Positions 1 to 60,194 of a DNA stretch of 64,000 nt are shown in pieces (position 1 is the stretch's first letter; every line of letters starts with the position of its first letter). The notes under the pieces are model-generated. The model was not told the DNA's origin. It worked only from the letters and a program-made list of their open reading frames with translations, and did no database searches. The translations under genes were made by a program, and so were the position numbers. The DNA is from Amoeboaphelidium protococcarum X5 (taxonomy: Eukaryota; Fungi; Aphelidiomycota): positions 1,695,608 through 1,759,607 of the forward strand of contig JALDTO010000266.1 of assembly GCA_023515725.1 (NCBI GenBank). Direction: 5' to 3'.

Positions 1-2016
1 GTGAGCGATGCTACCGTTCAAGAGTAATATCTTATAGCTGGACGATCATTTATAACTCTCAGCATTATAGATCTTTCATCCGTCGTTTAGGAAGCAAAAG
101 CATAAGAGTTTTACGATTTATTTTTGGTTGCTGATGACGGTAATCTATCATAGGTGGTGATTTAACTCGGCGATGATTAATTTGAGAATGATGAGAGTTT
201 TGCCATTAATTAGTATCAAGCAGTAGACAAGACTAAGTTTAGTAGACGATTTTATCTACTTGATACCGTTAGTGGATTGGATTCACGCGATTAGCTGAAA
301 TATGTCAGATATGCTCAAGATGTTTAACTGATTGTACCTATTGCCCAGGATAATAAGATCATCACGCCTATATTGAAGATCAGCTATGGAACGAGACTTG
401 TGTCATAATTATAAAGGAATGATAGCACTTAAATTTCCAAGCCATCTGCACGATTCTGGGTAGTTTATTGCTCTGCAACATCTTATTTTTGGTATCAGAT
501 TGGTATAGCAGTGATTGTTATTTCAATATTGCTCTTCTTCTACTGGTCTCGTGCTATATAGATTTGGAATAGAAAGAATTCTCTTGGTTCTGAAGGATCG
601 TCTCTATATGTGATATTCGGCTGGATTGCCATTGGATGTTAGTATCTTGGCTGTATTCTGATCTTCTTTATGTCTGCGGTGACCTATTACTGGTATCTAG
701 AATTCAAGGTGTACTAGCAGATAACTTCTACTGTCCCTTCTGATTCTTATAGCATATATACATTTTATACATCTCTGTACACTGGCTTGATCTGTATGAT
801 TGTCGCGGTATTGTTTTAATTGCATCTGCAATTTAATAGTTCAATATTTTTGATGGATTGGGAAAAGTCACATCAATAAGTAGCTAAGTAATAATAAAAG
901 CAGACTGCAGATGACAGATCTAAGTAAGGAGATACTGTAAGTATGTGGAGACGAGTGGCTATAGCAAGAGAGCTTGTGCGATTAGTCGGAACGCGCAAAA
1001 CCTCATTGGTATTGACACTTGTGATATTAATTGCATTCGATCAAGGTGCTAAGTGGGGAGATAAAGCTTGTCTTATGCCATCCACTGATGCGTGCAAGTA
1101 CTCTCCGTTCAGTCCGATATTAATGTTTGCTATCGTCAGCTTTATTTGGCTCATGATTGAAGTGTGTCAATTGTTCATTAAATGTGCTGTTGTGGATCGA
1201 TTAACACCTGATCCTTTACTGAACCTGATGGATACAAGTTCTCTGGCCAATATTAGCATTTTTATAATGAACTGTCCATATCATGGGTACTATCTGCATG
1301 GAAAATCTGTGCATTAATTGGCAGACGTTGACTTTCAGTAGTTTAAGGATTATCTGCTTAAAGAATAGAATGCCGTGATGGATCGCAGAGGATTGGGCAA
1401 CACAGATTATCAGTAGTTTGAAGTATTTATCAACGGTGCTTTCTAGCAGACATATTTCTAACTGCTGAATGCCCTATAAATGAACAGAGGCGACGTTTAT
1501 CAGAATCGTTCAGCTGCCGCGAGAGGTCAACTGTTAGAGGAAAGTAAGACTATTTCATCCGTTGATGAGTCGCAACCATTAGCTGAGCGTTAAGCTGACG
1601 CGTCAACACTCAAGAAAGCAGATCCTTATCAGAGCATTAATAAGTTGTTGTGTAACTTTGTACAGAATAAGATTAAAGGTGTGAGTAGAGTATTGGTTAA
1701 GAGAACGCTGTGGAATCGCCTACTAGGAACTATTCCATTATTTGGTCAAGACAATGCTTTCATAGCCGTGGACGATGAAGGTATAAAATATGCATCAACA
1801 TTTATAAGAGGAATGGAGTTTTTATTGAACGTTCTCTACTTTTACATTTACATCTCACTCTATCTGGCCACGAGTAGTATTTACACAAATGGTGAAGTCT
1901 GGCTGCCTGTGCTTATAGTGTTCTTGGTGGACTAAGCAATAGTATCCATACGGAGATACGCCATGAGAAAGTCATTGTCCATTCACAGCCTTATAGATGA
2001 ACGATTTCTATTTTGA
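1..2016 (+). CDS. TMEM67: Meckelin (ciliary transition-zone membrane protein), 5'-truncated by window edge
   Basis: Frame 1 is open from position 1 to TGA 2014-2016 with TAR=Gln. Motifs RRFYLLDTVSG, IFLMDWEK, VSMWRR, YHGYYLHGKSVH..ADVD and C-terminal SLIDERFLF match meckelin/MKS3; multiple TM segments. Confidence 0.88.
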
Positions 2017-4565
2017 TGAGTAATGTTCCCATTTATCGCTGTCCTCTTTGCATTAATTGATATTGTGTACTCTAATATATCTTGATTTAACTCGCGTTGC
2101 AGATCTGAGACTAACTCTTTTAGATTGGCCTTCTAGCCTGAGAAGGTTGTACAAAACACAGCTAGTTAAACTTGTTAACTTTTAGAGACTGCATTGATCT
2201 TGATAAGATATTACATAAACTTTATACACGCCAAACCAGCAACAAATTGTTACGAATGAACGTCCACCTTACCTTGAAGACACCATATCATGTTCACAAT
2301 CTTTGGGATAACATCATCTTTGACGCGCTTTAACTACAAATTTCTAGTGTTTTGGAGGAATCTCTGTAGGTATTGACACACAATCTAAATGGAGTTAGAC
2401 TACTAATCGTCCAACATCTCCAAAAGGTACGGCCACCATAACTCCAACATTGCGACATTCTCCGGATCATTAAGAATATCAATTCCGACAAAACAAATTT
2501 TCAATGCAGCCAGTCTGACCGCAAACTAGTCATGACATAGGAAATCAACTAACGAATCTATTATCTATCTAGCAGCTGCTTCATCAGCAGTAAAAAGCTT
2601 TTCATTATCTTGAGTGATTTCATATTCATCTTTATCATCAGGATCTATTGCATATTAAGAATCAGAGTGTACTTTTTACTCTGCGACCCAACGCAATACA
2701 GACGCAGATGCACAAGGGTACTTAATGATTAACTGCGAGACTTGATCCTCTACGCTTCTGTCATATTAAGAACGTCCGCTATGAGTGCTTTTACATTGAT
2801 TATTAACGACCAATACAATACACTCCTAAAAGAACGAGAGTGACACCAATATCTCTTCAACGTCAGTAACAGACTTTCTGAGGCGACTCAAAACCGACGA
2901 GATAAGTATAGAAGAATACTACAAAAATTAGGAGCCAACTAACTATATCCAACCAGTCATAATTGACAAAGATTTAACAATAGATTGACTATGCCTGAGA
3001 TCCACAACTAGAACGTTCATAATCTCATTGCGGAATTCTTAAAGAAGTTATGCAATGCTTTAATCGCTATCCTCTAAATTCCCAACACTTTGATAGCAGC
3101 TAGATATTGACTTGACACAGTCCGTAAAATGATTCTGCAGAGAGTATAACAATACACGAGCAGTTACTTGCTTTTACTTGATATCACCTCTCTCTAAGTT
3201 ATCATAGATTCTGCAAATCAATTATGCACAGTACAGCTAGTCATCAACAACATTCTCAGCAGCTGTAGAAGATACTAATAAACTCGACAAGTCTTCAAGC
3301 AATCTCAACTTCAGATGCAGCGGCAAACGAGGGACGACCGCACATAGAGTGATTATCACAGCACTTCTATTCTGGCAATATATAGCATTCAATCTATCCA
3401 GCAATGGCATAACTAAAGAATACCAATCCACATACTGAATGAATTAATCCAGTGCCAACTCCAAGTCGGCAGAGTTGAAATTCTAAAATTGAATACAGGA
3501 CGCGCCTCTCAATAAGGTATTATCTTCAGATTGCACTTTCTATTGCCTAGATGGAGTATACAGAAACATAATACCGTCTAGGACCATATCAGCCGGGACT
3601 GTGTTGGTTTCTGTCAAATTACAAAGGCCATTCGTTTTATTGATGTACATCACTCTCTTCTCATCATCCACCGAATAACATACACCATTAAATTCCAATA
3701 GCATATTTGCCAACAATCGATTCAAAGGCTTTAACGACAGACGATCAATAATCTACTACTTAAAATCATTATTATACTACGGAGATGTATTCAAATTCTT
3801 GAAGGATGATGATGACATTAGATGAGTGTATGCATGAACAATCAAACTGGTGACGCGAACTCTGCTTTACTCACAATTAACTAATGCCGCATAACAAGGT
3901 AGAAACTATTCAATAATAGACTAAGCAATAGTGGAGGACTCTTACAACACCGCCTAGTCAACTCTGTCTAATACATGACATAATTTCTAATCAATGGACG
4001 TGTCATCTTTAGATATGTATCTTCCACCACGACTTATTACAGTGGCGATAACCAGAGTGGCCATCTTTTTCATACTCAAGTGTACTTGACTTAACAACTT
4101 TACCATCGCAGACAGTATACCAGGCATAATCTTTATCATTTCTTATTCATCTAATCTGCAGAGGAATTTAGACAATAACAAAAATCCATCGATTCTTATT
4201 TACAGAGCAAGACGCGTATTTACACCAACCACTAAGAGCTAGGACACTGCATACACTTGCAATTTCTACTAAATGACTTTAGAGTACCTCTCCTACTGCA
4301 TACCTATAATCTAAATAAGAAGTTTAAGACATTAATCGATAATTTATTCATTTATTTATAATGATGTATCAGACAAGAGATTGAGACAAGTTACCAAGTA
4401 CTATTGTTCTAATCCATAGATATACTACACTGGTTAATCAAGGACCAGATTGAATACTTGCACGGCCATTTATTCATTCTTATTAACGATGCTCTATTAA
4501 AATTAAGCATAAACAGCTCTTGCGATATTCAATTACAAAGCTTAATCTTAATCTTCAGCTGTCAT
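1983..4565 (-). CDS. TTI1: TEL2-interacting protein 1-like HEAT-repeat protein (~860 aa)
   Basis: Table-6 frame from ATG 4565 to TGA 1983-1985; both ends read manually and the internal track ORFs share this frame. Helical/HEAT composition; motifs IMPGILSAMVKLL and LWWPYLLEML resemble Tti1. Confidence 0.65.
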
Positions 4566-7377: not shown

Positions 7378-8832
7378 TCAACAACTTTCACAATCTGAAG
7401 ACAGCAGGTAATGTGTCTAGAAGTGATCGTGAGCAGACTCTTCTCGACTAAGCGCATCAGCCGCGATACCAGCAGGAAAATCATCATCACTATTATTACA
7501 AGAATTATTCTCTTGCTCATCTGAGCTTGTCGCTGGTTCAATAAATTCAGCCAACTCTTGCACTCTCACCTCTTGATATAAAAAAGTTCCATCTTCTGCC
7601 TCACCACACTTGAAACGTGGGGTGATTAGCTCTACAATCTAGAAATCTTCGTGCTCATCTTCACTGCATTCACCAGTATAACCATCCAAATCGTCCTCTT
7701 AATTATTTCGACGCGTTCTTTTAGTTGGCTTTACCTTATCAATGCTATCCGGAATGGCCTTTAAAGATCGCTTCCTCGAAGATTTCAAAATCTATGACTA
7801 CTTCAGCGGAGTTTGAGGGACATTTGCAGCAACATCCTTTGGGATACGCGACATCTATACTTTCAACCTCTCAGATGGCTTTCTTAATAAGCAGATAATG
7901 AGCGCCTTCACCAATCGCTCACCGATAGGCTCTGATGCATTAGCGCCATCCTCCTCTGTAAATGGATACGTAAATACTTCATTCCGTGCATCATTTTCAA
8001 CAAAGATTTTAAAGCGTTCCGAGTTGAGTAAAAAAATTGGAGCATGCAGAGTGTACAAAGCGGCAAACACCTGAGCAGTCCTAGAATCTTGATACCAATG
8101 TTGATGGACAGGAAATGCAGTGCGACTTTTCAATTCTGTACCAAAAAAAGTCAACGAATCACAATTATAATCTTGGAAGCAAACGTCCATACAAGATTGA
8201 TAATCATACTCAGGCTTGGCCATGATGCCCCCTATACGAGTTTTTCGTTCTGCTGATGGAATTGCTGCAACTTAGAGAATTGAAGCTATCGCACCTACCA
8301 ACATTGACAAAGCATTATTAATATTAGCTTCAGAATCAGCCCTGCGTAGAACTGTCAGATGCAATTAGACCATTTAATTATCCTTGACCATTAACCAGCA
8401 ATCATTCCAGACCTAGCGAGAAACCTTGAGCATAGCTGCCAACATATCAAGCCCGTCATCCTGGCAGCCCAGCGGTTGAACATTTCTATACAGCGCTGGA
8501 TGAAATATAACATGCTTTAACTTGGATGCATGCGGATTAACAATTACAAGAGTCTATTACTCTTAGTCACGACGGTCCGCACACGAAACCACTTTAACAG
8601 AAGCTTTTTCAATAAAATCATGGAGCTTAATACAGTGAGACTAAATTAGATCTTTCATAGGAGTTTTTACATTCTGCTCCAAATTATCATCAGCATCATC
8701 TTCAACATAGTCAAGAATATCAACGGTTGATCCAGATCTAGAGGAATTTTCCTCAATGTAAGCACTTGGCACCACTCGAACTTCTAATGGCAATGACGCG
8801 TCAAGACTCTGATTGAATGTAGGCATAGACAT
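7378..8832 (-). CDS. Hypothetical 484-aa protein with possible PD-(D/E)xK nuclease-like core and acidic tail
   Basis: Uninterrupted table-6 ORF from ATG 8832 to TGA 7378-7380, joining track ORFs 8641-8832 and 7855-8223. Contains MDVCF..FFGTELKS (D...ExK) and WYQDSRTAQVFAALY. Confidence 0.75.
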
Positions 8833-9239
8833 GAGACGCGTTAATTACGTAATTAAAAATAAGCAGTAGTATAAAATGAAGAAATGTCTTGACGCAGTAG
8901 AAGATTTTGAGTTTATCACTGTAGTGGAATTAGTGAAACGGCAGTAAACAGGTTTCTGAAAGCGTCGTAAAAAAGAGCAATTGAAGACAACGTGATTTTG
9001 AAATTACGGCATACATGTTGTTGTGCTAAGACGCGTTTTTATTAAGTCTCAGCCCTGGGAGTAGGATGGATATTATAATATTATAAAATTCAGATTTTCA
9101 TTTCAGTCACATAGTATCAACGCGTGCATAAGGCGGTCAAAGTCAAGGTTTACTGATCTAAAGAGTGCAGTCATTAACTCGTGTGAAACAGTCAAAAGTG
9201 GTATTAGTAAAGACTGTGACAAGTATCGAACGTAGATAA

Positions 9240-10599: not shown

Positions 10600-10826
10600 T
10601 ATTAACTTGCGAGGCATTTGTGGAGGAAAAAAATTTAAAAAAATAAACAAAATAAGTGCGGAGAGCTATGTCTGAAGTCTGAGTGACAATGCTTACATAT
10701 ATATATATATTGAATTCAACAAGTAAATATCAATAATGAGTATAATAAGCGAATGCTTTGAGTGAACGCGTAATCTTGTACAACGTTTTAAGAGTATTAA
10801 CATTAATACTTCATATACTAAAGTCA

Positions 10827-12046: not shown

Positions 12047-12960
12047 TGGGTGGTAGTCAAGACAAGCAGGCCTATGTGCTAGGTATACAAATAATTCAAG
12101 AATTTATGTTCATGTTTGGATTATCTAGTCTTGTTAAAAGGTATAAGCTGAATAGGATGTCAGACTAACTTTGCTTTAAACGCGTACAAGAGAGGTAGAC
12201 GTTGATCTGATTGCAAAGGCTTAGCAGCAAAAGTTCAACACTTATGAGAAACCTGCTCCAACAACTAAGCCAACCAGTTTGGCGAATACAAGTCTTAGAA
12301 GTCGTCTTTTAGTGATTTCAACCTCAATTACTATTTCCGTGTCCCATTGTAGAGTAATGTCGGATAATATCAATTCAAGGATAATTATGGTTAAGGTTCA
12401 CTGTAGTTGCTACCACCGATCCTGCAGACGGTTATTACCCTGTTTAATTCGCACTTGTATGAACGGAGCAGGATTGACTTTGATGAACCAGAAGCATCCA
12501 CCATCGCATTGCATCGCGCCAGCCGTAAATCTTCTGCTGGCAGCTTTAAGTTAAGAAGAGTCACCTTACATAGAGTACTATAATGGTCTGGAGATCCGCT
12601 GGTGGACAAATTCGATGGACAGAGATTTTCAAATCGGATTAAGTAGCATAGTGCTACTCTAGAAATCATCAGATTCTCTGCACATTCTCTCTCAGAAGAA
12701 TTTGTCCGCGAGATTCTAGGAGTCACTTGGGCATTGTAGAATGTTAAGTGCATTACAGTCACTTTGTCCGACTGACTGCTTTCTTGGTAAAAAGAGTTGA
12801 AGTTTTGGAAATGGTGGCATGAACAAAGATGCATTTGATCTGCTATTACCTGCTGTCCCATATTCACATTCACAATGTCAACCGCGTGAACTCTCTCCAA
12901 CGCAGAATATACAACAATCAAAATAAAATAATTATTCTTTTAAAGGTTAGTGGCTTGATT
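12047..12960 (+). pseudogene. Possible decayed coding sequence of unknown family
   Basis: TGA-free stretch of about 175 codons (12248-12775) in table 6 with no in-frame start, flanked by segments in other frames. Confidence 0.2.
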
Positions 12961-13145: not shown

Positions 13146-13448
13146 ATGTAGTGTCCGGAAACGTTTGAAGAAAGGTGTATGAGAATCGAGCAGAAACTAG
13201 ACGCGTTACTGACAAAGAATGCTATAGTGCTGAATGAGTATGCTTAAATATTCAAAGAGAATTAACAATTGAGGAAAGAAGTTGATCCAATAAAAAGGGA
13301 TGTTTCACAGCTCGCTGCTGATGTTAGAGGCATCCGAAGAAATAGGAGAGATTAATACCGCGCTATGACGAATTCTACTGCACCTCATGCTCTAATGCCT
13401 AAAGTGATGAAATCCGCTTCCTATCTCTTTAGATTTGTGACATTATGA
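13146..13448 (+). CDS. Small coiled-coil protein, paralog of 14127-14842 (possibly truncated)
   Basis: MQCPETFEERCMRIEQKLDA...KENQQLRKEVDPIKRDVSQLAADVRGI; shares IEQKLDA and the coil with the downstream copy. Confidence 0.55.
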
Positions 13449-13649
13449 TGTTTACTTTGCTGTCGCTCTGTGTACTGTTGTTGCAAATGAATGCACCGCT
13501 TACCTTCAAAATAAGAGAGCTGCAAATTAGATGATGACTTAATAAAAATATTAATTCCCAGTTCCCCTGTTTTTGGACACGGCATCAAATTTTTTGCCAC
13601 TCACGCGTATTTACTTCTGTATTGACTGAGAGCCATGTCAATTCAAATT

Positions 13650-14535: not shown

Positions 14536-14539
<4 letters not shown>

Positions 14540-18593: not shown

Positions 18594-19727
18594 ATGTTGT
18601 ATTTGGTTCTTATTTGTGTTATTGGCTACTTCGCATATAAGAATGTCCCATCTCAAGACTCGTTTAGAGATTACATCAAGAAGGCTCAAGGGAACGAGAG
18701 CTAATCTAAATGGATCCCTAAATTCCTTAGATCACTCGCTAGAGAACCCGCTTATGACTATCAGAGTTATGGATTATTTTCGCTGGTTACTATCAGACGC
18801 TCTGGTTAGTTGTATCTAGGATTCATGAGTATCTGGATTCCATTATCAGTTCCTGATGGTGGCGAATAGTAAGGAGATGCATAGCGCGGTTACCAATAGA
18901 CTGATTAATTGCACGGTGTTCAAGTAGATGGGTAGATCGAATCTTTACAGCAGTAGGCAATTGATGCAAAGCGGAGTAAGCAATTTAAATATGCTGGAGA
19001 TTTGTATTAGAAATGTGCATAGTTATGCTTACAAGCTGCTAATAGAGAACTCCAGAGCGGCGGTGGTGTGGAAGCTGCCAGTATGTTTGAAGATGCATAT
19101 AAGTGCTTCAAGTAGTCGGGAGATAGTCATTCGCTCTGTTTATAATCGCTGTAAAACGCCGCTGAATTGTATGAGCAATACGATCGGTCGATGAACCGTG
19201 CTGCCAGGTGTTACGATACTCTTAGTGATATGCAAATGGACAAGCCTGATTAAGCCATCCTCTCACTCAGGAAGGTTGTTGACTGCTATCAAGTTGATGA
19301 TGACATCAGAGCTGTATATGCGCGATATAAACTTGTTAATGCTTATGCAACAACTAGTCGCTATAGAGAGGCTTTAAGCGAAGTTGATAATCTGCTGAAA
19401 TGCCCTCGATTTGAAGAAGCTTACAAATTCAGAATTAATGAGATTATTCTATGCAGCTGTTTGTGCTCCCTTGGTGTCTCTAGGCAGTTTATCGATTTCA
19501 TTGCAATGTAGAAGAGGTTGAGTGAAGAGTTCCCAGCCTTTGACGCGTCACGAGAAGGACAGCTCTGCCGGGATTTAATCAAGGCTTATGATACATCAGA
19601 TTCTACTTAATGGACAGCTGTTATTAACGCGTTCTTTAGTCTTAGTCCTTTATCATCAACTGAGCGATGGAAAATGGACATTTTAAAGTCACAATCTGAT
19701 AAACTGGATCATAGTGAACTTACCTGA
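18594..19727 (+). CDS. N-terminally membrane-anchored protein with C-terminal alpha-SNAP/Sec17-like TPR domain (377 aa)
   Basis: Single ORF. TM MLYLVLICVIGYFAY, small domain YGLFSLV..YLGFMSIWIPL, then SNAP-like EAASMFEDAYKCFK, RAARCY, FPAFDASREGQLCRDLIKAYD, RWKMDIL. Confidence 0.8.
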
Positions 19728-21069: not shown

Positions 21070-21436
21070 TATATCTGCTATAGCTTTATAGATTTCTAGT
21101 ATGTATGTAAGATACGCAGATAATAATAGTTGAGTCTTGACCGAGAAAGTTTGACTCACCCTTGTAGACAGACAGACACAGAGACACTCAAAGACTCAAA
21201 GAGTAAGCGGCGAGGTGAGTGAATCTGAAACCGGACAATCTGAAAATCGATTCTCTCCTGACTGGCGACGTGACGCGTGAACGTTCTCACCAATCCTTGA
21301 GACTCAAGCTGCAATGACGCGCTTCTTCTTCCAAGAGAGAGAGAGTGACTGCTATTTCTCCTTGTCGATCGCTAAAACTCAGAATCTCGTCGCGTAGAAA
21401 AAGTCAAGACATATAACTGTAGATTTGTTTAGAGGG

Positions 21437-23579: not shown

Positions 23580-23739
23580 CTGCCTCCGGGTAGTCTCCCC
23601 CCTTCTCTTATCCATTCTAACCTCTTCAGAACTCCATCTGCCTCTTCAGATCTGAAAAGCTTCTCTATTAGACGCTTCCCATTCAGTGAAACAGGAAGGA
23701 ACCACCCGTTTCATAGTTTCAACGCGTCCTGATTACTGA

Positions 23740-40302: not shown

Positions 40303-40537
40303 CTTAGTTTAGTTGTTAATATGTCGATATAATATTAAAACGCGACTAATCAATGTTTGGCTACAATTGTTCTGAAGTTGAAATGATAAACTTATCTCGC
40401 CGTGCTGTTCGCGTCTTGTTTTATTTTGTTTCGTCTCGTCTCCCGTCAGCTATTCTTCTTCTTCTTCTTCTTCTTCCAGCTTTGATCATTCATTCAATTA
40501 ATTAAGTAATAGTGACCTTTTTGAGTACAACATTAAT

Positions 40538-43229: not shown

Positions 43230-43667
43230 TCACTGCTAGATTTATATACGATTCTCTCTGCAAAACTTGAGCATGTCTTCATTTTTATCTTTGTATGAGG
43301 TGGTCATTTGAGTGATAATTCGATCAAAGTTGTCAACGTTCTCTGACAGTACAGGCAAGACTTATCCAACGCGTCGCTGCACCAACACGCCATTTAGAAG
43401 TTGATAACACTTTCGCTCGGCCTCCAACTCCTTCAGTGCATTCACCACCAATCTACATACATACGCTAATGTAGTTATTACTTAGCGGATCAATATGTAG
43501 CAAAAATGGTCATTGAATGAGTACTTACCTGTGCTCATCACGCTAATTCCCAGTTCCCCGAGCTTAGCGGCGAGTCTCTTCAACTCTGCAGCCTTATTCT
43601 AAACTTCCTAAAATAAAGCCTGCTCCTTCTCCGTCAACTGTTACTGTTATTATTACTGGCTCGACAT
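43230..43667 (-). pseudogene. PFDN2: Prefoldin subunit 2 with a 1-nt frameshift in exon 1 (intron 43453-43528)
   Basis: LAAKLGEL/..DEHRLVVNALKELEAERKCYQLLNGVLVQRRVGQVLP. The ATG frame and the DEH frame differ by one base near 43550. Confidence 0.75.
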
Positions 43668-43817: not shown

Positions 43818-45884
43818 TCAATCTATCTTTATTGGCACACAAGTCTCTTTAATGCACTATATAATGTCTCCAACAAGGGGGCCTTCGAAGCGATTTTCGA
43901 ATAATACACCACACTCCATGCCATTGGTTACTTGTTTAACATCATTCTTGAGGTGTTTGAGTGACTTCAGTGATCCTTCATACACTTTGATATCATTACG
44001 CAAAACTCTGTACTTGATTGCTTGAGATTATACAGCACCTGCATCAGATAGCGACGCGTCCAGACTGGAAAGAGACCTATATAAAGTACCTGTTATAACT
44101 TTACATCCGGCAATCACGTCCTTATCCTTCCCGACATTAAAAGTGGCTTGAACACGCGCCTCTCCCACCACATCATACATATAATCTGGTTTAAGCATAC
44201 CTGAAATTAACTATTTAACATCATCCAAAAGATTATATATGATTTTGTGACTAATTACTGGAATCTAATGTTATGTAATGTATGCAGACAGCTGCTTTGG
44301 CTACGGGAGATTGAATGCAATCAGAGCTGGAGTAGCTTGAGATTATTATAGTTAGGATCCACCTCTATTACTAGATGAACCGCCACTTTGGCTATTCAAA
44401 CGACTATTTTTCATATTCTTAGTGGCTGCAAGTAAGTCCACATCTGACTGAGTTATCGGACCGACTGCTGAATGCAGAATCTTTATGCTAATCTGTTCAT
44501 CCGCATTTCTGGCCTTCTTATTAGCATTTGCCACCATAGTATCTAGAGCATACCGCACAGCATCAACTGACCCATAAACGTCTCCCTTGAGTACAACATT
44601 CAGCTCATGGACTTTTTATTACGCAGAAACGCCGCTATCAATATCACCTCCATTAGAGATAGATTACTAGTCCTTCTGCATAAGTTCTAATTCCTCCTTC
44701 AATGCACGAGCTTCACGAAGACTCTGGTAATACAGCGGACGGTTGTTGGTCATCTTTAGTCGTTGAACCTGCGCAACTTTACGATCATACAGTTTTTTCT
44801 TATACTCGAAGCTAGAACTATCCAATTTATGATTAGAAGCATTCACAGCTTCGGCGGCCATCTTGTCGCGCCTCTACCTCTGTAGATAGTCATCATGCAG
44901 CTATTTAGCTTCCTGTTCCGTAGCCACTTACTATGCACTATCTCCAGCGATAACATGATCCTACCCAGTCCATGCGCCGATAATCTCAACAGGGGCTGAT
45001 GGGCCGGCAGATTTGATCACTTTAAGTTTATCATTGTGCATCGCCCTGATCCGTACCCACGACTTGCCATTAGAGAACACCATAATAGAGCCAGTGGATA
45101 GAGTACCTTATTGTACTAGAATTGTAGCCACAGTCCCCCTACCTTTCACCTGCTTTGATTCCAAGACGACTCCCTCACAACTGGCACCCGGATCTGCTTT
45201 CAATTCCATAATCTCTGCCAGAGTTGTAATACATTCCTCCAGTCTATCTAGCCCATGGCCTTTGAGGGCGCTAATCTCTGCCACCTGTACATCACCGCCA
45301 TACTCTTCCACAACGATATCATGATCCATCAGTTGACGAAAGATCATGTCCCTCTACCGTTCGATATTTATACCCGGTAGATCACACTTATTCAGAGCGA
45401 TAATAATCGGAACATGCGCTGCCTGGGCGTGCTTGATAGCCTCTATGGTGGTAGGGGATACACCGTCATTGATAGCCACCACGAGAACGGCGATATCAGT
45501 CACCTGGACACCTCTAGCACGCATTGATGTAAATAGCTAATGACCGGGAGTATCGACAAACGTAATCTTGGCACCGGACTGTAGATCTACACTGAACGCG
45601 CCAATATGCTAAGTAATTCCACCAGCCTCCGACTTTACAACACTAGTCTTTCGCAGAGTATCCAGCAGAGTAGTCTTTCCAGTATCGATATGTCCTAATA
45701 TGGTGACGATCGGTGGTCGCGTTTACAAGTTACTTTTAGATTAAGCGGCCAATTATGCAAATTGTCTTCCACTTGATAAATTTACCGCAATTTAAACAGA
45801 AGCTTTATTATATTATCGCTGCTTGTTAAGTGAATATCTACTCGACACTTAAAGGCCTCTTGATAGTCTGGCGTAAATCATCAT
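43818..45884 (-). CDS. IFM1: Mitochondrial translation initiation factor IF-2
   Basis: [26 protein letters not shown](TAG=Q)[56 protein letters not shown]. Confidence 0.95.
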
Positions 45885-47752: not shown

Positions 47753-49009
47753 TCAATATACGGGCATGTTGTCATCGAGGCAGGTAGCGTACTAAGTAAT
47801 ACCACCAATTATATCCTTCACATTACTAAAGCCAAGTTTCTTCAACTGCAATACGCCCTTCTATGACGCGTTTCCTCGTCGACAAATCACGTATATCAAT
47901 TCATCCTTCTATATATTGTGATCAGATAAGATTTAATCATCATTTAACTAGGATAAAGGAATGTTGATAGCATCGGGTAGAGAGACAATCTAATACTACA
48001 GCGAGTCCCGAACATCAATCAATCTATGTGCAATACCCTTACGCTGTATGGCTTCGTACTCCTGCACTGTTATCCTGTCTTCATCAAATAACAATTTAAC
48101 CGACTTGGATTTATCACAAGACTTCTATCCACAAAACTGTTCATAGTCAGGTAGATTATCCGCTGTGATGGTTGGATTGTCTCCACACACTGAACAGTCG
48201 GGCTTCTTCTTACGCAACTAGATCACCTTGAACGAGTTCAAAAATGCATTATACAGAAGCATTTTACCAGCCATTATATCGCAGTTCTTTATAGTTTACT
48301 ATTATAACTATTTCGAGGTGGACGAGCCGTTACAAGAGCTAGTAAAGGCGCGATGCGTCTGTATGAGAATCTTGAGAACTTCAGTGGCCTGCATGGATCC
48401 AAGAGTGCCAACGAGAGAGCCAATAACTCCACCATCAGCACAATTTACAACAGCACCTGCGAAAGGTGGCTCAGGGAATAAGCATCTATAACATGGAGAG
48501 TCATTGTAATTGTACACCGTGAGTTGACCTTCAGTCCTCAAGGCAGACGCGGATACCAGCGGCTTACCGGTGAGAACACAAGCGTCATTCAACAGATACC
48601 TAGTGGGTGCATTGTCGAGACAGTCCACGACCACGTCAAATTACTTTACAATTTCCACAGCATTCTCTCTCGATAACTAGCAATTGAATTGGATGGTGCG
48701 GCAATCTGAATTGAGATCAGCGATAAATTGACTAGCAGATTCCACCTTGCTCAATCCAACACCAGATTCTCTGTGCAGTACCTAGCGATGTAGATTAGAC
48801 TCTTCCACCACATCATAGTCCAGTATTCCTAATGTGCCAACACCCGCAGCCGCGAGATACATGGCGCACGGACACCCCAGTCCTCCCATACCGATTAACA
48901 GCACTCTACCACCGATCAGAGCCTACTGACCAGCCACGCCAATCTCTTTCATGAGTAAATGACGCGAATACCTCATCACCTATCTCTTATTCAACTAATT
49001 GCTACTCAT
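47753..49009 (-). CDS. UBA4: Adenylyltransferase/sulfurtransferase Uba4/MOCS3 (ThiF plus rhodanese)
   Basis: [20 protein letters not shown](TAG=Q)[35 protein letters not shown]. Confidence 0.96.
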
Positions 49010-49480
49010 TGCAATAATTAATCAAAAACTGCTTTATCTTATCTCTGATTTGTAATCAAATAAAACTATCAGAATCGAGTTGCCGCGGCAGATCAGTGAA
49101 AATGTAGCAGATCACGATTTAACGCGTTTTTAACCGCGATTTGATTTCAATAAGGCTGAAACTGAACGAAAACGGACTTAAGATTAGAGTTATAAAAGCT
49201 ACTATACCGTTTTTAGGGCTTAATATCTCCATCTGTCTCGTAGATATGTCACATGTTACCATGCTCGGTGACGCATCTAACTGTCCCTAGTGTCACGTCA
49301 GGTATGATTGTTTTAGGGTCCAAGCGCAATGAAAACTAGATAAAAGTCAACTGTTACAGTATTGAATAGTAAAATTTATTCAAACAAGAAGTGCACATTT
49401 ATTATTATTATTATTACATACATAGACACAAGTCGGAGCTATAAACAAAGCAACACACGAATGCTAAGGCAATCACTCAC

Positions 49481-49816: not shown

Positions 49817-50334
49817 TTTTAAATTTAGTCACTATAGTTATTATTAAACAATTTATAATTAGTACAATGAAGAAAAGAAAAGATAATCTAATCGGGACCC
49901 CATTTTGTTAGCACTTTAGTGTGCTACACCGCTCTACTTTGTGACTGGATCAATGTAGTTGTGCTACTCAATGGGCGAATCAGCTGGGAGATCTGGCACA
50001 GGCGAAATTGCTTGGCGTATTACAAATTTATTTTTGACTCAAAAAGAATCAAATTGCACAGAATATGATATGAATTAGGAGAGAAGTCTAGCTAATAGCT
50101 AAAATATATAGCGCTGAAGCTAGGTATTACGCTAAACCGATGGCGGTACTTATTTGCGGAAGCGTCCCACTGCCTTCCTATCTCAGCGACGCGTTGTTCT
50201 GTAGATTTGAACTGTTTGATCACTTTTCTCTCTTTACTCAGCTGCTGTAAACTAATCTATTCACATCTCTTCATATCACAGTGGTTGATATTCAATAGTT
50301 CAATTTCGTTATAAATATCAAAAGTATCATTGAA

Positions 50335-51723
50335 ATGTAGTATAGACATACGAGCGATCCAGCGACTGCGTAAATGTACAGCTGCGTGTCTTGTAATCTC
50401 AAGTTTGCTGATGCAGTGACATAGAAATCACATTATCAGTCTGATTTCCACCGATACAATTTGAAGAGAAAAGTGGCCGGTCTGCCTATTGTATCTGCGG
50501 CTGAGTATAATGCGCGTCTCATTGCAGTACAGTAGTAGTAGAAGTTGGACACTGAGCAGAAGATGTCTGGCTAGGCTTGGCACTGCCAGGTTTGCCAGAA
50601 GCACTTTGGCTCTGAGAATGCTCACAATAGTCATATGGTTAGCAGAAAGCATCTGGATATGATGAAGCGATAGAATGCCGCTGACTTATAGAGTGAATCA
50701 AATGCTCATAATGAAGAGGTGGCCGATGAACAAGACGCGTCCAAAGTGGTTGATGGCTCTGTCAAAGCTCTGATGGAATCGGAGATGCTTCAGTTGTTGA
50801 AAGCTGATTCATTTAGAGGCAAGAGTTATCATTAGAAGGTGATTGCGGCAACTTCTGAGGATTTAATCTAGACATTGCTGGATGATAAAGTGAAGGAAGC
50901 ATTAAAGTTGGACGTTGACCATTTCTGTCTTTTCTGTTGCCATTATTCCGAGAGTTTGGAGGAGAATCTGCTGCATATGGAACATCAGCATTCTTTCTAC
51001 GTCCCTAATAGAGCACAGTTACGAGATGTATTCGAATAGTCTACTGGACTGAAATCGCTGCTCCAATTCTTGGCTGATATGATCACAGAGAGGAACATGT
51101 GCTTGTACTGTCAGACTAGCGGTAAGACCTTCTGGACCATTGAGAGTGTGCGCAATCATATGGCCAGTGCTGGTCATTGTAAGATTAGCACTGATGATAT
51201 TGACTTTGTGGATGAGATTGCCCAGTTTTATGATTTTGGATAGGATGATGAAGAAGGAGAGGATTGCTGGGAAGATGTTGATGATCGCGACTCATTGTCT
51301 GTAGTCAGTGATAATGCTATGGAGGTTGATCAGGCATCTGACAATTCTTTGATGATTGTTAAAGGGGAGCGATAACATCAGCTGTCAAAAGTCAATAATC
51401 GTGATTAATATGATTATGGAGATGTCGATGAAGATGCTGCAGAGTGGAAGCTACCTAGTGGCAAATCTATTGGACATCGATCCCTGATGAGATATTACAA
51501 GCAGAGATTTCATGACACTGATGGTGGTTCGCGCAGATCAGGTCGGCATGACCAGGATAGTAGTGGGTAATTAGTTAGAACTGAAGAATGGTTCAAAGAG
51601 CGCCGCAAGATGCAGAAGGATGTGGTGCGTGCCAAAAAGTATTAGCATGACAAGGTTGACCTGCGTTTTGCTGTTAGATCATTCAAATTGGTCAAGCACT
51701 TTCGTCCTCAAGTGGATTTCTGA
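50335..51723 (+). CDS. REI1: Pre-60S factor Rei1/ZNF622 (C2H2 zinc fingers)
   Basis: HYQSDFHRYNLKRKVAGLP, CQVCQKHF..HMVSRKH, CLFC..HMEHQHSFYVP, LPSGKSIGHRSLMRYYKQ. Confidence 0.95.
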
Positions 51724-53182: not shown

Positions 53183-53801
53183 ATTAACCAGTATGTATGT
53201 GTGTGTGTGTGGAATATATGTAGTTAATCAGTATTGAGGTGAATCGATCGATTTTTCTCTCGAATAACGTTCTCTCAAGGCGATAAAGTTCGGAAATACG
53301 CGCGCCACGAGCGATTCATTTTGTGCGAACGGCCTCTCTCAATCTCTCTCTCTCGCGCGCTTTTTACCGTCTTGATGTTTTCTTGTTACGTCGCCCACTT
53401 CTATCCCACAGACTCGTTTCGCTCAATATAAATTGTACTGCATATTATTACGCGTATTTCGGTCGACTCTTCCTAATATCTGACTATATGCATTTATTTT
53501 GTCTGGTTTGAATCGTCTAATCATTTGACGCGTTCGACTTTTGGCATTATCTGGGCGGACTTTATCTCTGTTTGAATTCAATTCTATGGTGTAACTTGAG
53601 GTGTAATGTCGCTCCCACAGTCTGTTTCAGAGGAGTATGTCTCTTAAAAGTTCATACCTATGGAATTGCAACAGTGACTGAATCAACTGATACTGAAGAA
53701 GGTTGCTATTTAATTTGTCATGGTTTGCTGCTTTTTCAAATTTACAAGATTTTTACACTTAAAACTTTTATACTCTGTTATTATTGTCATGTTTGAGAAT
53801 C

Positions 53802-56073
53802 ATGTAGTTTACATATCTATTCTAATTTACTAAGTTGAGTAGGATAAGGAGCAAGAGCAATTAGATTTTATATGTTGCCGTGTAAATCTTGATGATGGTA
53901 AAGATGGAGTGAGTTAGAAATTAATTAGTTAAAAGTAGGCGTGTAAAGGTTCACTTGCATAATTTTTTAAGTTTTACTTGAATATGGACATGTTTAAAAG
54001 GAACTAAGAATGCACTGATGGCTTTAAAAGTGTCTGATTTGTTAGCGTCTGGTCTATCATTAGAGTCTCCTTTGATTGTCTCGATTCCTGTTGGTATTGT
54101 TGGTAGAGCCACTTTTCTATGCTCGTAGACTATTTGCAGAGTGTATGAATCTTACAGATCGACTGCAAACTTATTGTTGAGCTCTGATATGTTGAAGGAT
54201 ATTGATCATACAATATCTTTGATATACAAGACTTTTGAGGTATTACCATTCGTGTTTGTTGAGGGATCTTCTGGCTGCGGTAAGACTTAGCTTGCAATGA
54301 CACTGTACTAGAGAAGTAAATAGTCATCTTAAACGCGTAATGTCTATTACTTGGTCTGCTCAAAGTATGACGATAATACTCAGGTTATATACCGGTATTT
54401 CACTAATATGTCAGAGCTATTTATGAAGTGCATCCATCAGGACTTTTCATCTCAATCGCGTTTTAAGGAATTAAAAGATGAGCTGGTTGAAGATAATTTA
54501 TTTGTGTTTGGGTTTATATATCAGTTATTATTCGAAGATGTTTATGGCACTAAAGATTATGTTAAAATCTTTAAAATGAACGGTAACGCCTTACGACGCT
54601 TGATTGACGGATGAAAGACTGCCATTAGATTCCAGACCTGTTGTCTTTTTGGACGAATTTTTCCCTGAAGACAATGGCCGTGAGGAGGAATACTTGAATT
54701 TCATGCGCAACTGCATTCTTACTGTTGGAATTGTGGTGATAATGACGGGCACTGATGCCAAAGTTGCTAGTCTTATCAGGCGATCTGGGAAGACTCGCGG
54801 CGATGACGTTATTCCCTGGTGTTATATATGTCACCCATTTACCGAAAGTGATTAATTTGTTTCCTGATGTACAATAAAGTGGATTATGGCATTAGATACT
54901 CTGCAATTCACGCCCATATTTCGCCAAGAAAGCTTATAATCTCATGCTGGAGGATGGGAACGATTTAGATGCAATCTTGGAAAAGTTGTTTCCTGTGTTC
55001 GTTAATGCCAAAGATATTAACTTTGCAGATAATATTCCCGGCCATACCGGATAGGTTGTGTTGACTCTGAATGCATTTCATATTTCTGGCAGCTAAAGTT
55101 AATCTACTTACCTAATTCATAAGCATTATGGGCGCCTGATATTGGATAATGAGCCATCGATTCTTCTGTGCGACGGTAAACTTGCTGGTCATCCTTAGAA
55201 TATTTGGCATCCAATTTCCAAATTTCCCTCTCCATCAGAGGACTTATTATTTATTGCATATGGTCATGTTGGGTGGTAAGAATTATCACTCAATTTACTG
55301 TGACGGTGCTATTCGCCCTCTGCGTGCTATAGTCTTTGATCTTGGATTCAGATGCGCGAAAGTGGCTTAATATAAGTGACTTCACAAACATCTAATAAGG
55401 CATACGTATCTGGTAATGGTTTGAAGCTTTGGTTGCTGCTGCCGTCTGCCTTGCGTCGCGTTAGAATGGAGTGAAGGGAATTGGGCTTAGAGACTTTTTC
55501 AGGTTACTACTGTAACACTTGAATCCTACTGCCACCACGATGGATGATTTGCGAGTTCAGAACATGGAGTTACTAGACGACTTTAGTTCCATCATAGTGC
55601 CATTCTTTACTACGCCTGGAGCTCAATGGCCGGACTATATCAAAAACTCAAAAGATTTGCTGTGTAGAGACTTTGACCGTACAAAGAACATTGATCATAT
55701 TGCTGCACGTGGTGAATTGATAAGAATTTTTACGGATGCAAGGGAAGAGATTCGATATTTAGCAGTGGAGTCCAAATACAGCAAGAGTATTGTGACTATT
55801 GAAGAAATTCAAGAGGTTCTGTTGCGCATGAGCGATGATACAGAAGTGACAATACTGGTTGGAACATTTTTTGACAGCGATTACTTTAAAAACAAGTCAT
55901 TTGCCCAATTTGTCTCCCAAAATGGAGCTCTGTGTGATTGTAAATTCTTGAAAGTTTCCTTGACAAGTGATACTCCTTCCTTTATGGATTTGCTGGAACG
56001 CTTTAGTCTGACACCATAAGCCGGTTATTCACGTCGCTTAGTGGTTTTTATTGAAATTGGACAGTTGGCGTGA
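53802..56073 (+). pseudogene. Crinkler (CRN)-type effector: header + P-loop NTPase + C-terminal REase-like domain, multiply frameshifted
   Basis: Header end SLESPLIVSIP; Walker A FVEGSSGCGKTQLA; Walker B VVFLDEF; VIMTGTD; SRPYFA; FEALVAAAVCLASR..GI; LAVESK. Frameshifts near 54610, 54840, 55250 and 55420. Start uncertain. Confidence 0.7.
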
Positions 56074-56880: not shown

Positions 56881-57738
56881 TTTATGAGTGAATAAATGTG
56901 ACTTCGAACTAACATGTTGATTCTCTTCACGTTTATAATTACGAATTTTAATTTTTAATTTTTGTGAATTAATTTTAGGCTATCCATAGACTGTTATTCA
57001 CCGATTAATGGCTGTATTCTTTTAACGTCGCTTGATCGATGAAACATAGCGTCCGTATCGGTTACGATATCGGAATGAGAAGCAAACATTTAATTCATTA
57101 GTGTTGCATCAAATGCTTATGAGTGAACCGCTTAATGAAAAAAAAACTTATTAGAGTCGAACTTACGGCACTGAAGATCAATGGGTAGTGAGTGACACGG
57201 GAGCAAGCGACACAGCACTAGTAGAGACTATCAAAGTCGGTCGTTGATGCGAGAACAGGACAGAACGCGCGCGCGTATAAATTCGCAGTGACCGAACGCA
57301 TTCTTTCTTTTTTCAGTATCAGTAGATTGGAAGATAAAGTTTTTACTAACATTTAACTAGTGGTTCAGTAAACGTTCCCCTTCCATATATAGACGCGTAT
57401 TTCTCAATCTGAAGTCTAACTAGGTCTATTAGTTATTCTATGGCGAGAAATTCTATAATTACATCTTTACATTGTATTGTTATAACTCTTTAATATTTCC
57501 CATGATCATCAGGACTCATTATTATTGCTTTAAATTGAGGGTATTACGCGTTCACATTGTATCAATTGCTCCAATTTTCAGGCATATGCATCATGCTCTA
57601 TCTTGACGCGTCTGGCTGACAAGCGAGGTGGCTGTAATCCTTCAATAGGCAGTATTTCAATGAGGTGTATCTTACATTTTCGCAATTTTCAATTTGTACG
57701 CTTCCTTCATTTTAATAGTTCAATAGAAGCCTATATAG

Positions 57739-59505
57739 ATGCAAAAGCGTAAAAGACAAGACGAAACTAGCTCTGCTTCTTAGCAGACAGAAGCTGAAGT
57801 AGGAATCACTGAATATCTCGGTAGTTCTGCTGGTGAGAGATTCTCTGGCATTCTCAAGCAGAGATATGAAGACTTTATCGTCAATGAGATTGATTCTTTG
57901 GGTAATGTCGTAGTGCTGTCTGATGTATCCGCGTCACCGACAGATAGCGATGATATCTTACAAGACTAGTCTCAATTGGAGATTCCTAGCGATTTTATGC
58001 ATATTATATCAGATGATATTAAAGAACACCTGTTTGCAGTTTTAAATGGAAGTTTGAAGGATGTTTAGCTAGAGTCGTAGGAATTGGCAAAGGATCAGCG
58101 AACTCAGCTGCATCAGTGGATTAAAAAGGCATTTAATGGTAAATTGGAATCATAGACTAAGGATGGCGGCATTGTTGTCAAGAAATCCAATAGCAGGACG
58201 CGTCAAGATAGCTTCTATCTTCTATTCCGTCTTTGCAAATCTAATCGCGATACTCATGATGCTTTGCAAATTCTATCCAGAGCATTGAACATCCAACACA
58301 AGAGATTAGCTGTAGCTGGTACTAAAGATAAACGCGGTATCACTACTTAGCTCGTCACTGCATTTAACCTTAGTGAGAGACATTTGATGAGCGCCAATGT
58401 GTTCTTAAAACGCCATAACATTTAAGTTGGAAATCCTGTTCGCGTAAAGTAGCAGCTAACTCTGGGTGACTTGTCAGGTAATCAATTCAAGATCACGCTC
58501 CGTAATATATAATTCGGTGACACTTAATCTATTGATAGACGTTTACAAGAGCTCAATTAGACAGGATTTATCAACTATTTTGGAATGCAGCGATTTGGCC
58601 ACGGTAAATCTCCCACTCACCTTGTTGGAAAACTACTGCTACAGTTGAAGTATGGTGAAGTTGTGAATCTTTTGGTCAAGTCTGCACTTTCTAGCGACCA
58701 TCCGCAATATGATTCGGATGATGACTTGATCACTGCAGACACATCGCTGGAAGATTTGAATCGCTTGAGGGATTGTGTTAACCGAAGAGAAGTGTCCGCA
58801 TCTAAGATTCTGGAATTTCTGATAAAGAACTTTCAGTAGCAAAAAGTCAACTATCAAGGTGCCATACTCTCTATTCCTCGTACTCTCCGCATGATGTACT
58901 ATCACGCGTATTAAAGTTATCAGTGGAACCAGGGTGCGAGTTTCAGATTGAAAAACTATGGATCTAAAGTAGTTGAAGGTGATTTAGTCTTGATAGATGA
59001 TCAGAATAATAGTGGTCGTGGTGGAGATTCAGAGAGCAGATCTGCTAGTGTCAAGTATGTATCTGCTGAAGATTGTGGTAGTTATCACATCTCCCAAGTA
59101 GTTCTCCCTTGTTATGGTTCTCAATCTTAGTTACCCAAGAACGAAGTGGGAGTGTTTTTTTAGAATCTTATTGCCGCAGATGGATTTAACAGAGATTGTA
59201 TGGCGGATTTGTACAAGAAATTGGACTTGTACGGCGATTACAGAAAGATTATCGCTGGACTCAATGAACGTGGTGAAAGCACTTTAGATCTGGAATGGAA
59301 TGTTGTAAAGTACACCGATGCAACAGTACCTCTTGTGGATTCTGACATGGATACCCTTGAAAACAGGAGTAATGCTTCTAATGGTGTCGAGGATGGACAA
59401 TTGACAGCGCTGAATCTTAAGTTCAAACTTGGCCGCTCTGAATACGCGACAATGCTCCTACGTGAACTTATGACTGTCGAAAGTGACCGTCAGTAACAGT
59501 AATGA
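57739..59505 (+). CDS. PUS7: TruD-family pseudouridine synthase Pus7
   Basis: EVGITEY, GILKQRYEDFIVNE, AGTKDKRGITT(TAG=Q), GNQFKITLR, GFINYFGMQRFG, YHAY(TAA=Q)SYQWN, YATMLLRE. Confidence 0.97.
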
Positions 59506-60194
59506 ACATGAAGTAAAAAATGGTCATTTTGCACTAAACGTCGCATGAAAGGCTTAGCAAACGCGTCCGTCCACAACCGTTAAATATTATGTAAAGCATA
59601 TGACATTATTAATATATCTAACTCTATGTGGTACCTGTTTTTTACCATGTTTAATTATCTTTTAAAATACTTATGGGAATGATTAAAATTGATATTTCCT
59701 AATAAGAGCTTATAATTATATCGGATCATGAGTGTAGAATTCGGTAGTTGACAGTTAAAATGTGAAATGCATCAGTCTGTACTTGTCATCATTAGAGAAA
59801 ACTCTATAAGAAGTCTAACAAATATAATAGAACATCATATGCATTCAAGATTTATAAGTAGATGCCATACGGCGCCATTAGAAACGCGATATGGTCTGAT
59901 AATATACTGAATAAAGTAAAACATCGCAAACAATATATCCATTGTGGGTATATGCACAAAGAGGTGAGAGGAGCCACCGATATGCGACCTTTGCAAGGGA
60001 TTTAGTTACTTTAGGCTACAATATGACCCATGCGTACACAATACCAGTATACATGGGCTTCGATAGAGCCATTTAATACGCGATCAAATAAGGAACAATA
60101 GCGCGTCCGGCTACTGATTTGATCTATTACAGTCCTTCATCAAGACAGAATTGAAAGAAAAAGAGAAGAAACGCGAGAGAGAATCTTTTCTACC

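What the first reader, a model, noticed from the sequence alone, without database searches (positions are those of the whole stretch)
1598..59566. Palindrome ACGCGT is strongly over-represented across the window, including inside exons
Seen: a manual count found at least 44 ACGCGT sites: 1598, 4212, 7711, 8796, 8836, 9031, 9120, 10766, 12180, 13201, 13603, 19543, 19627, 21273, 23026, 23722, 24603, 24920, 25690, 26055, 28071, 28596, 31706, 32474, 35523, 36226, 37733, 38171, 39425, 43369, 44054, 47866, 49122, 50189, 50735, 53450, 53528, 54333, 57393, 57546, 57606, 58198, 58904, 59561. With GC estimated by eye at about 39%, roughly 9 are expected from base composition. Sites fall in CDS in different reading frames (Thr-Arg, Asp/Asn-Ala-x, x-Arg-Val), in an intron and in intergenic DNA. 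I saw none in GBE1, SEY1, RPL35, glycogenin or cyclophilin. Established: ACGCGT is the fungal MCB cell-cycle box, but that is a promoter element. Frame-independent iteration is instead reminiscent of cyanobacterial HIP1. Inference: a eukaryotic highly iterated palindrome maintained by a methylation or repair bias, or by a chromatin-organising protein.
Basis: partly seen in the sequence, partly recalled or inferred. Interest (0 to 1): 0.75.

Follow-up and report, generated by a model that had tools for sequence, protein, structure and literature searches.

The report
ACGCG site iterated through aphelid genes
In this stretch of the algal parasite Amoeboaphelidium protococcarum the word ACGCG (present twice in ACGCGT) piles up 100-150 bases upstream of ordinary genes and is about three times too common at silent positions inside them, likely because binding sites of an abundant DNA-binding protein are weakly favoured everywhere rather than because of DNA methylation.

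Summary
Real and robust. All 44 sites are exact (dinucleotide shuffle 5.4). The window is Amoeboaphelidium protococcarum, read with TAA/TAG = Gln. The excess survives synonymous-codon shuffles (21 vs 4.9-5.4 in CDS) and holds outside CDS (23 vs 2.4). The unit is not the palindrome but ACGCG: about 3-fold per strand, with ACGCGT being two overlapping copies and no extra palindrome term. It is strand-symmetric, frame-independent, uniform along genes, and does not skew amino acids. It also peaks 100-150 bp upstream of ATGs of housekeeping genes (22 of 33 promoters), so it is both a general promoter element and a gene-body word. No periodicity, no depleted one-off neighbour, and a published Pfam table lists no DNA methyltransferase in this species, so a HIP1-type methylation ratchet is unlikely. 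Best reading (0.5): an abundant CGCG-binding factor, MBF/SBF-like or Rsc3-like, whose sites are weakly selected at silent positions. The protein was not identified, selection versus binding-dependent protection from mutation is unresolved, and only 64 kb could be tested.

The parts
1598..59566 (.). Dispersed ACGCG word: 127 loci (171 strand-counted copies), 44 of them the double form ACGCGT
1598..1603 (.). CDS site, meckelin (+), Asp-Ala-Ser
4212..4217 (.). CDS site, TTI1-like (-), Thr-Arg
7711..7716 (.). CDS site, ORF 7381-8832 (-), Thr-Arg
8796..8801 (.). CDS site, ORF 7381-8832 (-), Asp-Ala-Ser; absent in one divergent contig of run X4
8836..8841 (.). Upstream site, about -8 from ATG of ORF 7381-8832; kept in a divergent contig of run X10
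9031..9036 (.). Upstream site, about -203 from ORF 7381-8832
9120..9125 (.). Upstream site, about -292 from ORF 7381-8832
10766..10771 (.). Non-CDS site beyond the end of the myotubularin-like ORF
12180..12185 (.). Counted as non-CDS; probably Thr-Arg in the unannotated ORF 11961-12800 (+); reads as GCGCGT (half-site kept) in run X10
13201..13206 (.). CDS site, small ORF 13146-13448 (+, uncertain model), Asp-Ala-Leu
13603..13608 (.). Non-CDS site
19543..19548 (.). CDS site, SNAP-domain gene (+), Asp-Ala-Ser, near a convergent 3' end
19627..19632 (.). CDS site, SNAP-domain gene (+), Asn-Ala-Phe
21273..21278 (.). Divergent promoter site: about -163 from KHE1, -208 from TPT
23026..23031 (.). Upstream site, about -268 from LSM gene
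23722..26060 (.). Five sites (23722, 24603, 24920, 25690, 26055) in an unannotated 3.2-kb stretch
28071..28076 (.). Intron site, DPH5 intron 1 (28036-28106)
28596..28601 (.). CDS site, DPH5 (+), Tyr-Ala-Ser
31706..31711 (.). CDS site, DUF498 gene (-), Thr-Arg-Val; also about -211 from the HECT_2 gene
32474..32479 (.). CDS site, HECT_2 gene (+), Asp-Ala-Ser
35523..35528 (.). Divergent promoter site: about -22 from LRR gene, -133 from ORF 35657
36226..36231 (.). CDS site, ORF 35657 (+, uncertain model), Gln-Arg-Val
37470..37625 (.). RPL35/DEAD divergent promoter with three ACGCG half-sites and no ACGCGT: example of the promoter peak at a housekeeping gene
37733..37738 (.). CDS site, DEAD helicase (+), Gln-Arg-Val
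38171..38176 (.). CDS site, DEAD helicase (+), Ile-Arg-Val
39425..39430 (.). CDS site, CDK-like kinase (-), Asp-Ala-Tyr
40285..40420 (.). CDK/SEY1 divergent promoter region with three ACGCG half-sites
43369..43374 (.). CDS site, prefoldin (-), Arg-Arg-Val
44054..44059 (.). CDS site, IF2 (-), Asp-Ala-Ser
47866..47871 (.). CDS site, UBA4-like (-), Asn-Ala-Ser
49122..49127 (.). Upstream site, about -117 from UBA4-like
50189..50194 (.). Upstream site, about -145 from REI1-like
50735..50740 (.). CDS site, REI1-like (+), Asp-Ala-Ser
53450..53533 (.). Two non-CDS sites (53450, 53528) upstream of glycogenin
54333..54338 (.). Site in a fragmented P-loop ORF (+, uncertain model), Thr-Arg
57393..57611 (.). 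Three non-CDS sites (57393, 57546, 57606); the last two about -192 and -132 from PUS7
58198..58203 (.). CDS site, PUS7 (+), Thr-Arg
58904..58909 (.). CDS site, PUS7 (+), His-Ala-Tyr
59561..59566 (.). Non-CDS site just downstream of PUS7

Best explanation
ACGCG, over-represented on both strands upstream of genes and at silent coding positions, is likely the site of an abundant CGCG-binding protein that would act as a general regulatory factor at promoters and whose extra sites inside genes are likely kept by weak selection. Shown: the word, its half-site unit, the upstream peak at about -150 to -100 from ATG, and a uniform 3-fold preference at synonymous positions with no amino-acid skew. Inferred: that a protein binds it (the preference [G/A]ACGCG[T/C] matches the MCB box bound by fungal MBF/SBF KilA-N proteins, and CGCG words mark Rsc3/30 sites in yeast); that promoter sites keep DNA open; that gene-body sites give a small additive benefit (ln bonus about 1.1 per half-site, i.e. 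codon-bias strength, doubling at the palindrome), for example in nucleosome positioning. The force is too weak to change residues and appears absent from four presumably highly expressed genes.
For: Promoter peak: 32 ACGCG loci in -300..0 of 33 ATGs vs 16.9 (max 30 in 3000 circular shifts); 15 vs 3.3 in the -150..-100 bin; none in 0..+300 (19 vs 19.6); 22 of 33 promoters vs 43.5% of random 300-bp windows. ACGCG is the top 5-mer upstream, orientation 13:14. CDS: 94 vs 37-40 under two codon shuffles, the top 5-mer; sense 43 vs 17.4, antisense 51 vs 18.6, all frames; Ala is GCG in 18 of 39 cases after xAC vs 137 of 851 otherwise (P 2e-5); dipeptides TR 33 vs 32.1, DA 55 vs 57.3, RV 49 vs 50.6. 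Conditional logit: ln bonus 1.09+-0.10, extra palindrome term -0.27+-0.32, exceeds cancelling two CpG penalties by 0.42+-0.14 (1.4+-0.25 for ACGCGT); same bonus >400 bp from any ATG (1.13+-0.13). MBF binds ACGCGT via core CGCG and SBF is retained in fungi (PMC4862756, passages); SBF placed in the fungal ancestor (PMC9457484, passages); A. occidentale has one KilA-N hit; CGCG motifs are nucleosome-depleting GRF sites in yeasts (PMC2897762, passages).
Against: No binding protein was identified. The published Pfam table gives A. protococcarum 0 KilA-N, 0 E2F, 0 AP2 and has no CG-1, CXXC or SAND row; its KilA-N zero is weak, because it also gives 0 for Gonapodya, for which Medina's supplement lists two SBF proteins. 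No direct evidence of selection: of three sites readable in divergent copies one is kept, one reduced to a half-site and one lost; residues under sites differ in 6 of 171 comparisons vs 605 of 11418 elsewhere, non-independent and uninformative. No nucleosome-scale periodicity. Functional sites are more usually avoided in gene bodies (general knowledge), as CACGTG is here (1 site). Only 64 kb of one genome was tested.
Confidence: 0.5

Rival explanations
1. Same binding protein, but gene-body sites are a neutral footprint: occupied sites mutate less (or are repaired better), so they accumulate at silent positions without benefit.
Against: A 3-fold to 8-fold drop in total mutation rate needs very high occupancy at about 2 loci per kb (inference). 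Cancelling CpG loss alone is not enough.
Confidence: 0.2
2. Gene-body sites are hidden promoters for antisense, nested or neighbouring transcripts in a compact genome, so everything is promoter function.
For: The word is a promoter element here; 31706 is both in a CDS and -211 from the next gene; part of my non-CDS class is unannotated.
Against: Bonus is the same >400 bp from any ATG, flat along CDS and not raised near 3' ends; CDS sites are not in AT-rich or clustered context.
Confidence: 0.12
3. An intrinsic, protein-independent mutation or repair context effect makes ACGCG unusually stable.
For: Strand symmetry, silent-site restriction and Poisson spacing.
Against: It is a lone outlier: next palindromic 6-mer 1.58 vs 3.89, other alternating purine-pyrimidine 5-mers at most 1.26 vs 2.33; does not explain the upstream peak.
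Confidence: 0.1
4. A HIP1-type ratchet: a methyltransferase marks ACGCG/CGCG and methyl-directed repair fixes new sites.
For: Density 688 per Mb lies in the HIP1 range of 300-2700; one-off words differing at the outer base are enriched (GCGCGT 2.4x, TCGCGT 1.9x) and inner ones are not, as Elhai describes for HIP1 (abstract); mild CpG depletion at codon junctions; ACGCA is the most depleted 5-mer under one null (39 vs 60.6).
Against: Pfam table: PF00145 = 0, MT-A70 = 0, N6 methylase = 0 in this species, while PF00145 is found 2-5 times in five of the other six genomes; ACGCA depletion vanishes once the motif bonus is fitted (-0.18+-0.14); no palindrome-specific term; upstream peak unexplained.
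Confidence: 0.08

Closest known systems
MCB box / MBF-SBF (Mbp1, Swi4, PCG2; KilA-N/APSES domain)
   Same: Identical word ACGCGT with core CGCG (PMC4862756); orientation-free upstream position.
   Different: Here it is in 22 of 33 promoters of unrelated housekeeping genes (RPL35, SEY1, UBA4, PUS7) and 3-fold enriched inside CDS; no cognate protein shown.
Yeast general regulatory factors, Rsc3/Rsc30 CGCG sites
   Same: CGCG-core word upstream of many unrelated genes; species-specific GRF words are known (PMC2897762). A. protococcarum lists 8 Zn2Cys6 proteins.
   Different: Strong 5' A preference; enrichment through coding DNA; nucleosome depletion untested; Rsc3 orthology not tested.
Cyanobacterial HIP1 (GCGATCGC) and alternate HIPs
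   Same: Frame-independent iteration in CDS, similar density per Mb, outer-base one-offs enriched.
   Different: O/E about 5 vs 55-228; unit is a non-palindromic 5-mer; no cognate methylase listed; no periodicity; has a promoter peak.
Dnmt5-linked CG periodicity of picoeukaryotes (recalled, not from a call)
   Same: CG-containing words favoured inside genes of a compact eukaryote genome.
   Different: No C5 methylase listed, CG overall depleted (0.82), no nucleosome-scale period in CG or ACGCG.

Membership tests
MCB/MBF regulon | Site sequence ACGCGT with CGCG core | tested here: met
MCB/MBF regulon | Enriched upstream of start codons | tested here: met
   ACGCG 32 vs 16.9; ACGCGT 12 vs 5.9, 0.8% of 3000 shifts
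MCB/MBF regulon | Restricted to G1/S gene promoters | tested here: not met
   housekeeping promoters and deep CDS carry it
MCB/MBF regulon | Bound by a KilA-N/APSES protein | tested here: inconclusive
   published Pfam count 0, but that count misses known SBF in Gonapodya; proteome not searchable here
MCB/MBF regulon | Cell-cycle periodic expression of targets | not testable with these tools
   no such data
General regulatory factor site (Rsc3/30 type) | Positional peak upstream of many unrelated genes, either orientation | tested here: met
General regulatory factor site (Rsc3/30 type) | In vivo nucleosome depletion over the word | not testable with these tools
   needs MNase/ATAC
General regulatory factor site (Rsc3/30 type) | Abundant sequence-specific binding protein identified | not tested
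   no genome held
HIP1-like highly iterated palindrome | Frame-independent excess in coding DNA | tested here: met
HIP1-like highly iterated palindrome | Very high O/E from base composition (55-228) | tested here: not met
   4.85 vs Table 2 of PMC4390886
HIP1-like highly iterated palindrome | Palindrome itself is the favoured unit | tested here: not met
   extra term -0.27+-0.32
HIP1-like highly iterated palindrome | Cognate DNA methyltransferase | tested here: inconclusive
   none in a published Pfam table; not searched directly
HIP1-like highly iterated palindrome | Quasi-periodic spacing | tested here: not met
   gap CV 0.96 vs null 0.96; periodogram p 0.82; 44 sites give limited power

The most novel reading that the evidence does not exclude
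A eukaryote without DNA methylation has written the site of one chromatin-organising protein into the silent positions of most of its genes, about two loci per kb, as a selected second code: a protein-read, methylation-free counterpart of bacterial iterated words, possibly an SBF/MBF-type factor turned from cell-cycle regulator into a genome-wide architectural factor at the root of fungi.
Probability: 0.3. Interest if true: 0.8.

Novelty: new variant of a known kind. Interest (0 to 1): 0.52.

Why it matters
A promoter word that is favoured rather than avoided inside coding DNA, strongly enough to decide synonymous codon choice (46% vs 16% GCG in context), is unusual. This species has two subgenomes and two sequenced strains (four copies per gene), so gain and loss at silent sites can be measured directly: a clean test of whether binding sites in exons are selected or are mutational footprints.

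Tried and rejected
No whole genome is held, so nothing is genome-wide. Scans for more aphelid DNA failed: metagenome contigs gave 4 loci at 29-47% identity (11.9 kb, ACGCG 6 vs 5.4 expected, a small negative control); viral contigs 0; GTDB 0. Read laying (7601-15300) showed 40 of 1070 difference rows, none inside a site, so no conservation rate could be computed; no RNA holder listed. Rejected: dispersed repeat (none of 14 direct families or 17 inverted pairs holds ACGCGT); structured RNA (0 Rfam hits); codon or amino-acid side effect; RNA-level signal (strand-symmetric); purine-pyrimidine alternation or dipyrimidine avoidance; CpG protection alone; one-directional conversion; nucleosome or helical periodicity (CGCG best period 108 bp, p 0.07). 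No correlation of site density with codon bias among the remaining genes (rho 0.03). Ten paper searches listed no report of this motif in aphelids; I did not read the species' genome paper (Mikhailov 2022, seen only as a reference), and the supplement of PMC9457484, which may score SBF in aphelids, could not be read. PMC6299283, PMC8657485 and the supplements of PMC12695648 held no relevant term hits. Five look-ups of earlier findings returned nothing. A direct search of the proteome for SBF/APSES or methylases remains open.
Full report
Observation. All 44 coordinates are exact and complete. Expectation is 9.05 from base composition, 5.5 to 16.9 from Markov orders 1-3 and 5.35 from dinucleotide shuffles, with 0 of 100 reaching 44. 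The sites are evenly spread (11, 12, 9, 12 per quarter) and belong to no repeat family.

Organism and genes. Standard-code ORFs are few; with TAA/TAG = Gln long ORFs tile the window and match Pfam families. SEY1 is 95% identical to an Amoeboaphelidium protococcarum protein, and 9 of 10 gene models I looked up exist letter for letter in the protein collection; 7 of those 9 clusters hold named A. protococcarum members. A paper describes this genome as duplicated (PMC10608142, passages). I used 44,355 bp of CDS (about 3.9 kb of it uncertain models) and 19,670 bp of other DNA. The second class includes unannotated or degenerate ORFs; 12180 probably lies in one.

Nulls. In CDS ACGCGT is 21 against 4.9 in within-gene synonymous shuffles (max 13 of 1000) and 5.4 when junction dinucleotides are also kept (max 11 of 300); it is the only outlier among the 64 palindromic 6-mers (3.89; next 1.58). 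Outside CDS it is 23 against 2.4 (max 9 of 300).

The unit. CGCG and ACGCG head the maximal-order Markov lists and ACGCGT does not. ACGCG is 94 vs 37 in CDS and 77 vs 16 outside; GACGCG is the best hexamer (38 vs 9-10). A conditional logit on 14,125 synonymous choices with free codon and junction weights gives ln bonus 1.09+-0.10 per ACGCG, no extra term for the palindrome (-0.27+-0.32) and little for other CGCG (0.26+-0.16) (pseudo-likelihood errors, approximate). ACGCGT is two overlapping half-sites, about 8-fold.

Character of the coding excess. Both strands (43 vs 17.4; 51 vs 18.6) and all frames are affected; Ala is GCG in 18 of 39 cases after xAC against 137 of 851; dipeptides are not skewed (TR 33 vs 32.1, DA 55 vs 57.3, RV 49 vs 50.6; NA 58 vs 45 is the largest). 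So it is a DNA-level force on silent positions. The bonus is the same more than 400 bp from any ATG (1.13+-0.13) as near one (1.20+-0.19), and is missing in RPL35, cyclophilin, a proteasome subunit and GBE1 (-0.17+-0.48).

Promoter peak. Around 33 ATGs (10 supported by database proteins; the rest my choice; one corrected) ACGCG loci number 32 in -300..0 against 16.9 (max 30 of 3000 shifts), 15 against 3.3 in -150..-100 (bin seen after the fact), and 19 against 19.6 in 0..+300. 22 of 33 promoters carry it, against 43.5% of random windows, among them RPL35, DEAD helicase, SEY1, UBA4, REI1 and PUS7. Density is 5.75 per kb upstream, 3.2 in other non-CDS, about 2.1 in CDS and near 3' ends; orientation is 13:14.

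What it is not. Not mere escape from CpG loss: the junction CpG penalty is -0.33+-0.06 and the bonus exceeds twice that by 0.42+-0.14 (1.4+-0.25 for ACGCGT); outside CDS the words are 5.2x and 10x over base composition while CpG o/e is 1.01. Not purine-pyrimidine alternation. Not a one-way conversion: ACGCA looks depleted (39 vs 60.6) but not once the bonus is fitted (-0.18+-0.14). Not periodic (gap CV 0.96 vs 0.96).

Candidate proteins. I could not search the proteome. Supplementary Table S1 of PMC10608142 (rows seen; methods section) gives A. protococcarum 0 C5 DNA methylase, 0 MT-A70, 0 N6 methylase, 0 KilA-N (A. occidentale 1), 0 E2F, 0 AP2, 8 Zn2Cys6, and has no CG-1, CXXC or SAND row; single-copy housekeeping domains read 2, so the table tracks this genome sensibly. 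The KilA-N zero is unreliable: the table gives 0 for Gonapodya, whose two SBF proteins are in the supplement of PMC4862756. The methylase zero carries the same kind of caveat but less, as that model finds 2-5 copies in five of the other six genomes. MBF binds ACGCGT through its CGCG core and SBF is retained across fungi (PMC4862756, passages); SBF is mapped to the fungal ancestor (PMC9457484, passages; PMC10406608 passages, add nothing on aphelids); CGCG words are nucleosome-depleting GRF sites in yeasts (PMC2897762, passages).

Divergent copies. Reads laid on 7601-15300 showed only 40 of 1070 difference rows. Loose ends tell three sites: 8836 kept with changed flanks, 12180 read as GCGCGT, 8796 absent. 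Turnover occurs; no rate can be given.

Comparison with HIP1. Density (688 per Mb) is in range, but O/E is 4.85 against 55-228 (PMC4390886, abstract and sections 2.2 and the first part of 3.4); HIP1 has cognate methylases and quasi-periodic spacing (PMC13756078, abstract). It resembles a HIP in being iterated through frames but fails the palindrome, O/E and spacing tests.

Verdict. A real, sharply defined signal: a general promoter word of MCB sequence that is also favoured at silent sites throughout genes. Most likely an abundant CGCG-binding factor with weak selection for extra sites (0.5); neutral footprint of the same factor (0.2), hidden promoters (0.12), intrinsic context effect (0.1) and methylation ratchet (0.08) are the rivals. 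Ten paper searches listed no description of it, but the genome paper was not read. New variant of a known kind; interest 0.52, held down by the single window and the unidentified protein.

Noticed in passing
window 1-64000: E-box CACGTG occurs once, against about 8.6 expected under the maximal-order Markov model: an avoided word, the mirror image of ACGCG.
   Followed up: no
window 4619-4638, 15199-15212, 53334-53356, 60196-60229: GA/CT tracts in upstream regions; CTCTC and AGAGA are the next most enriched promoter 5-mers after ACGCG.
   Followed up: partly
window 1-64000 (CDS): A-runs are avoided in coding DNA: AAAAA 90 vs 181 under codon shuffle, 119 under the junction-preserving null.
   Followed up: no
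window 23063-26261: 3.2 kb with no convincing gene, no Pfam hit for six ORFs tried, no Rfam or plasmid match, yet 5 ACGCGT and 11 ACGCG copies.
   Followed up: partly
window 53982-56070: P-loop NTPase-like gene in three ORF pieces (weak NACHT/AAA hits); resemblance to Crinkler-type proteins is recalled, not tested; no relative in viral contigs.
   Followed up: partly
window 13146-13448 and 14294-14536: Two small similar coiled-coil ORFs, the second preceded by 21-nt tandem repeats; divergent copies show indels and joints here.
   Followed up: no
window 11961-12800: 279-codon + strand ORF without a model in my set; a divergent contig differs mostly at third positions near 12180, suggesting it is or was coding.
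   Followed up: partly
window 10830-11675: Myotubularin-like ORF matches only profile positions 26-175 of 352; truncated or continued through an intron I did not resolve.
   Followed up: no
window 1-2016: Meckelin (TMEM67), a ciliary transition-zone gene, in a species whose spores I recall as amoeboid and non-flagellate.
   Followed up: no
PMC10608142 Table S1: PF07282, a transposase-associated zinc-ribbon domain, is listed 11 times in A. protococcarum and 72 times in A. occidentale against 0-2 in the other five genomes; a link to TnpB/Fanzor elements is recalled, not tested.
   Followed up: no
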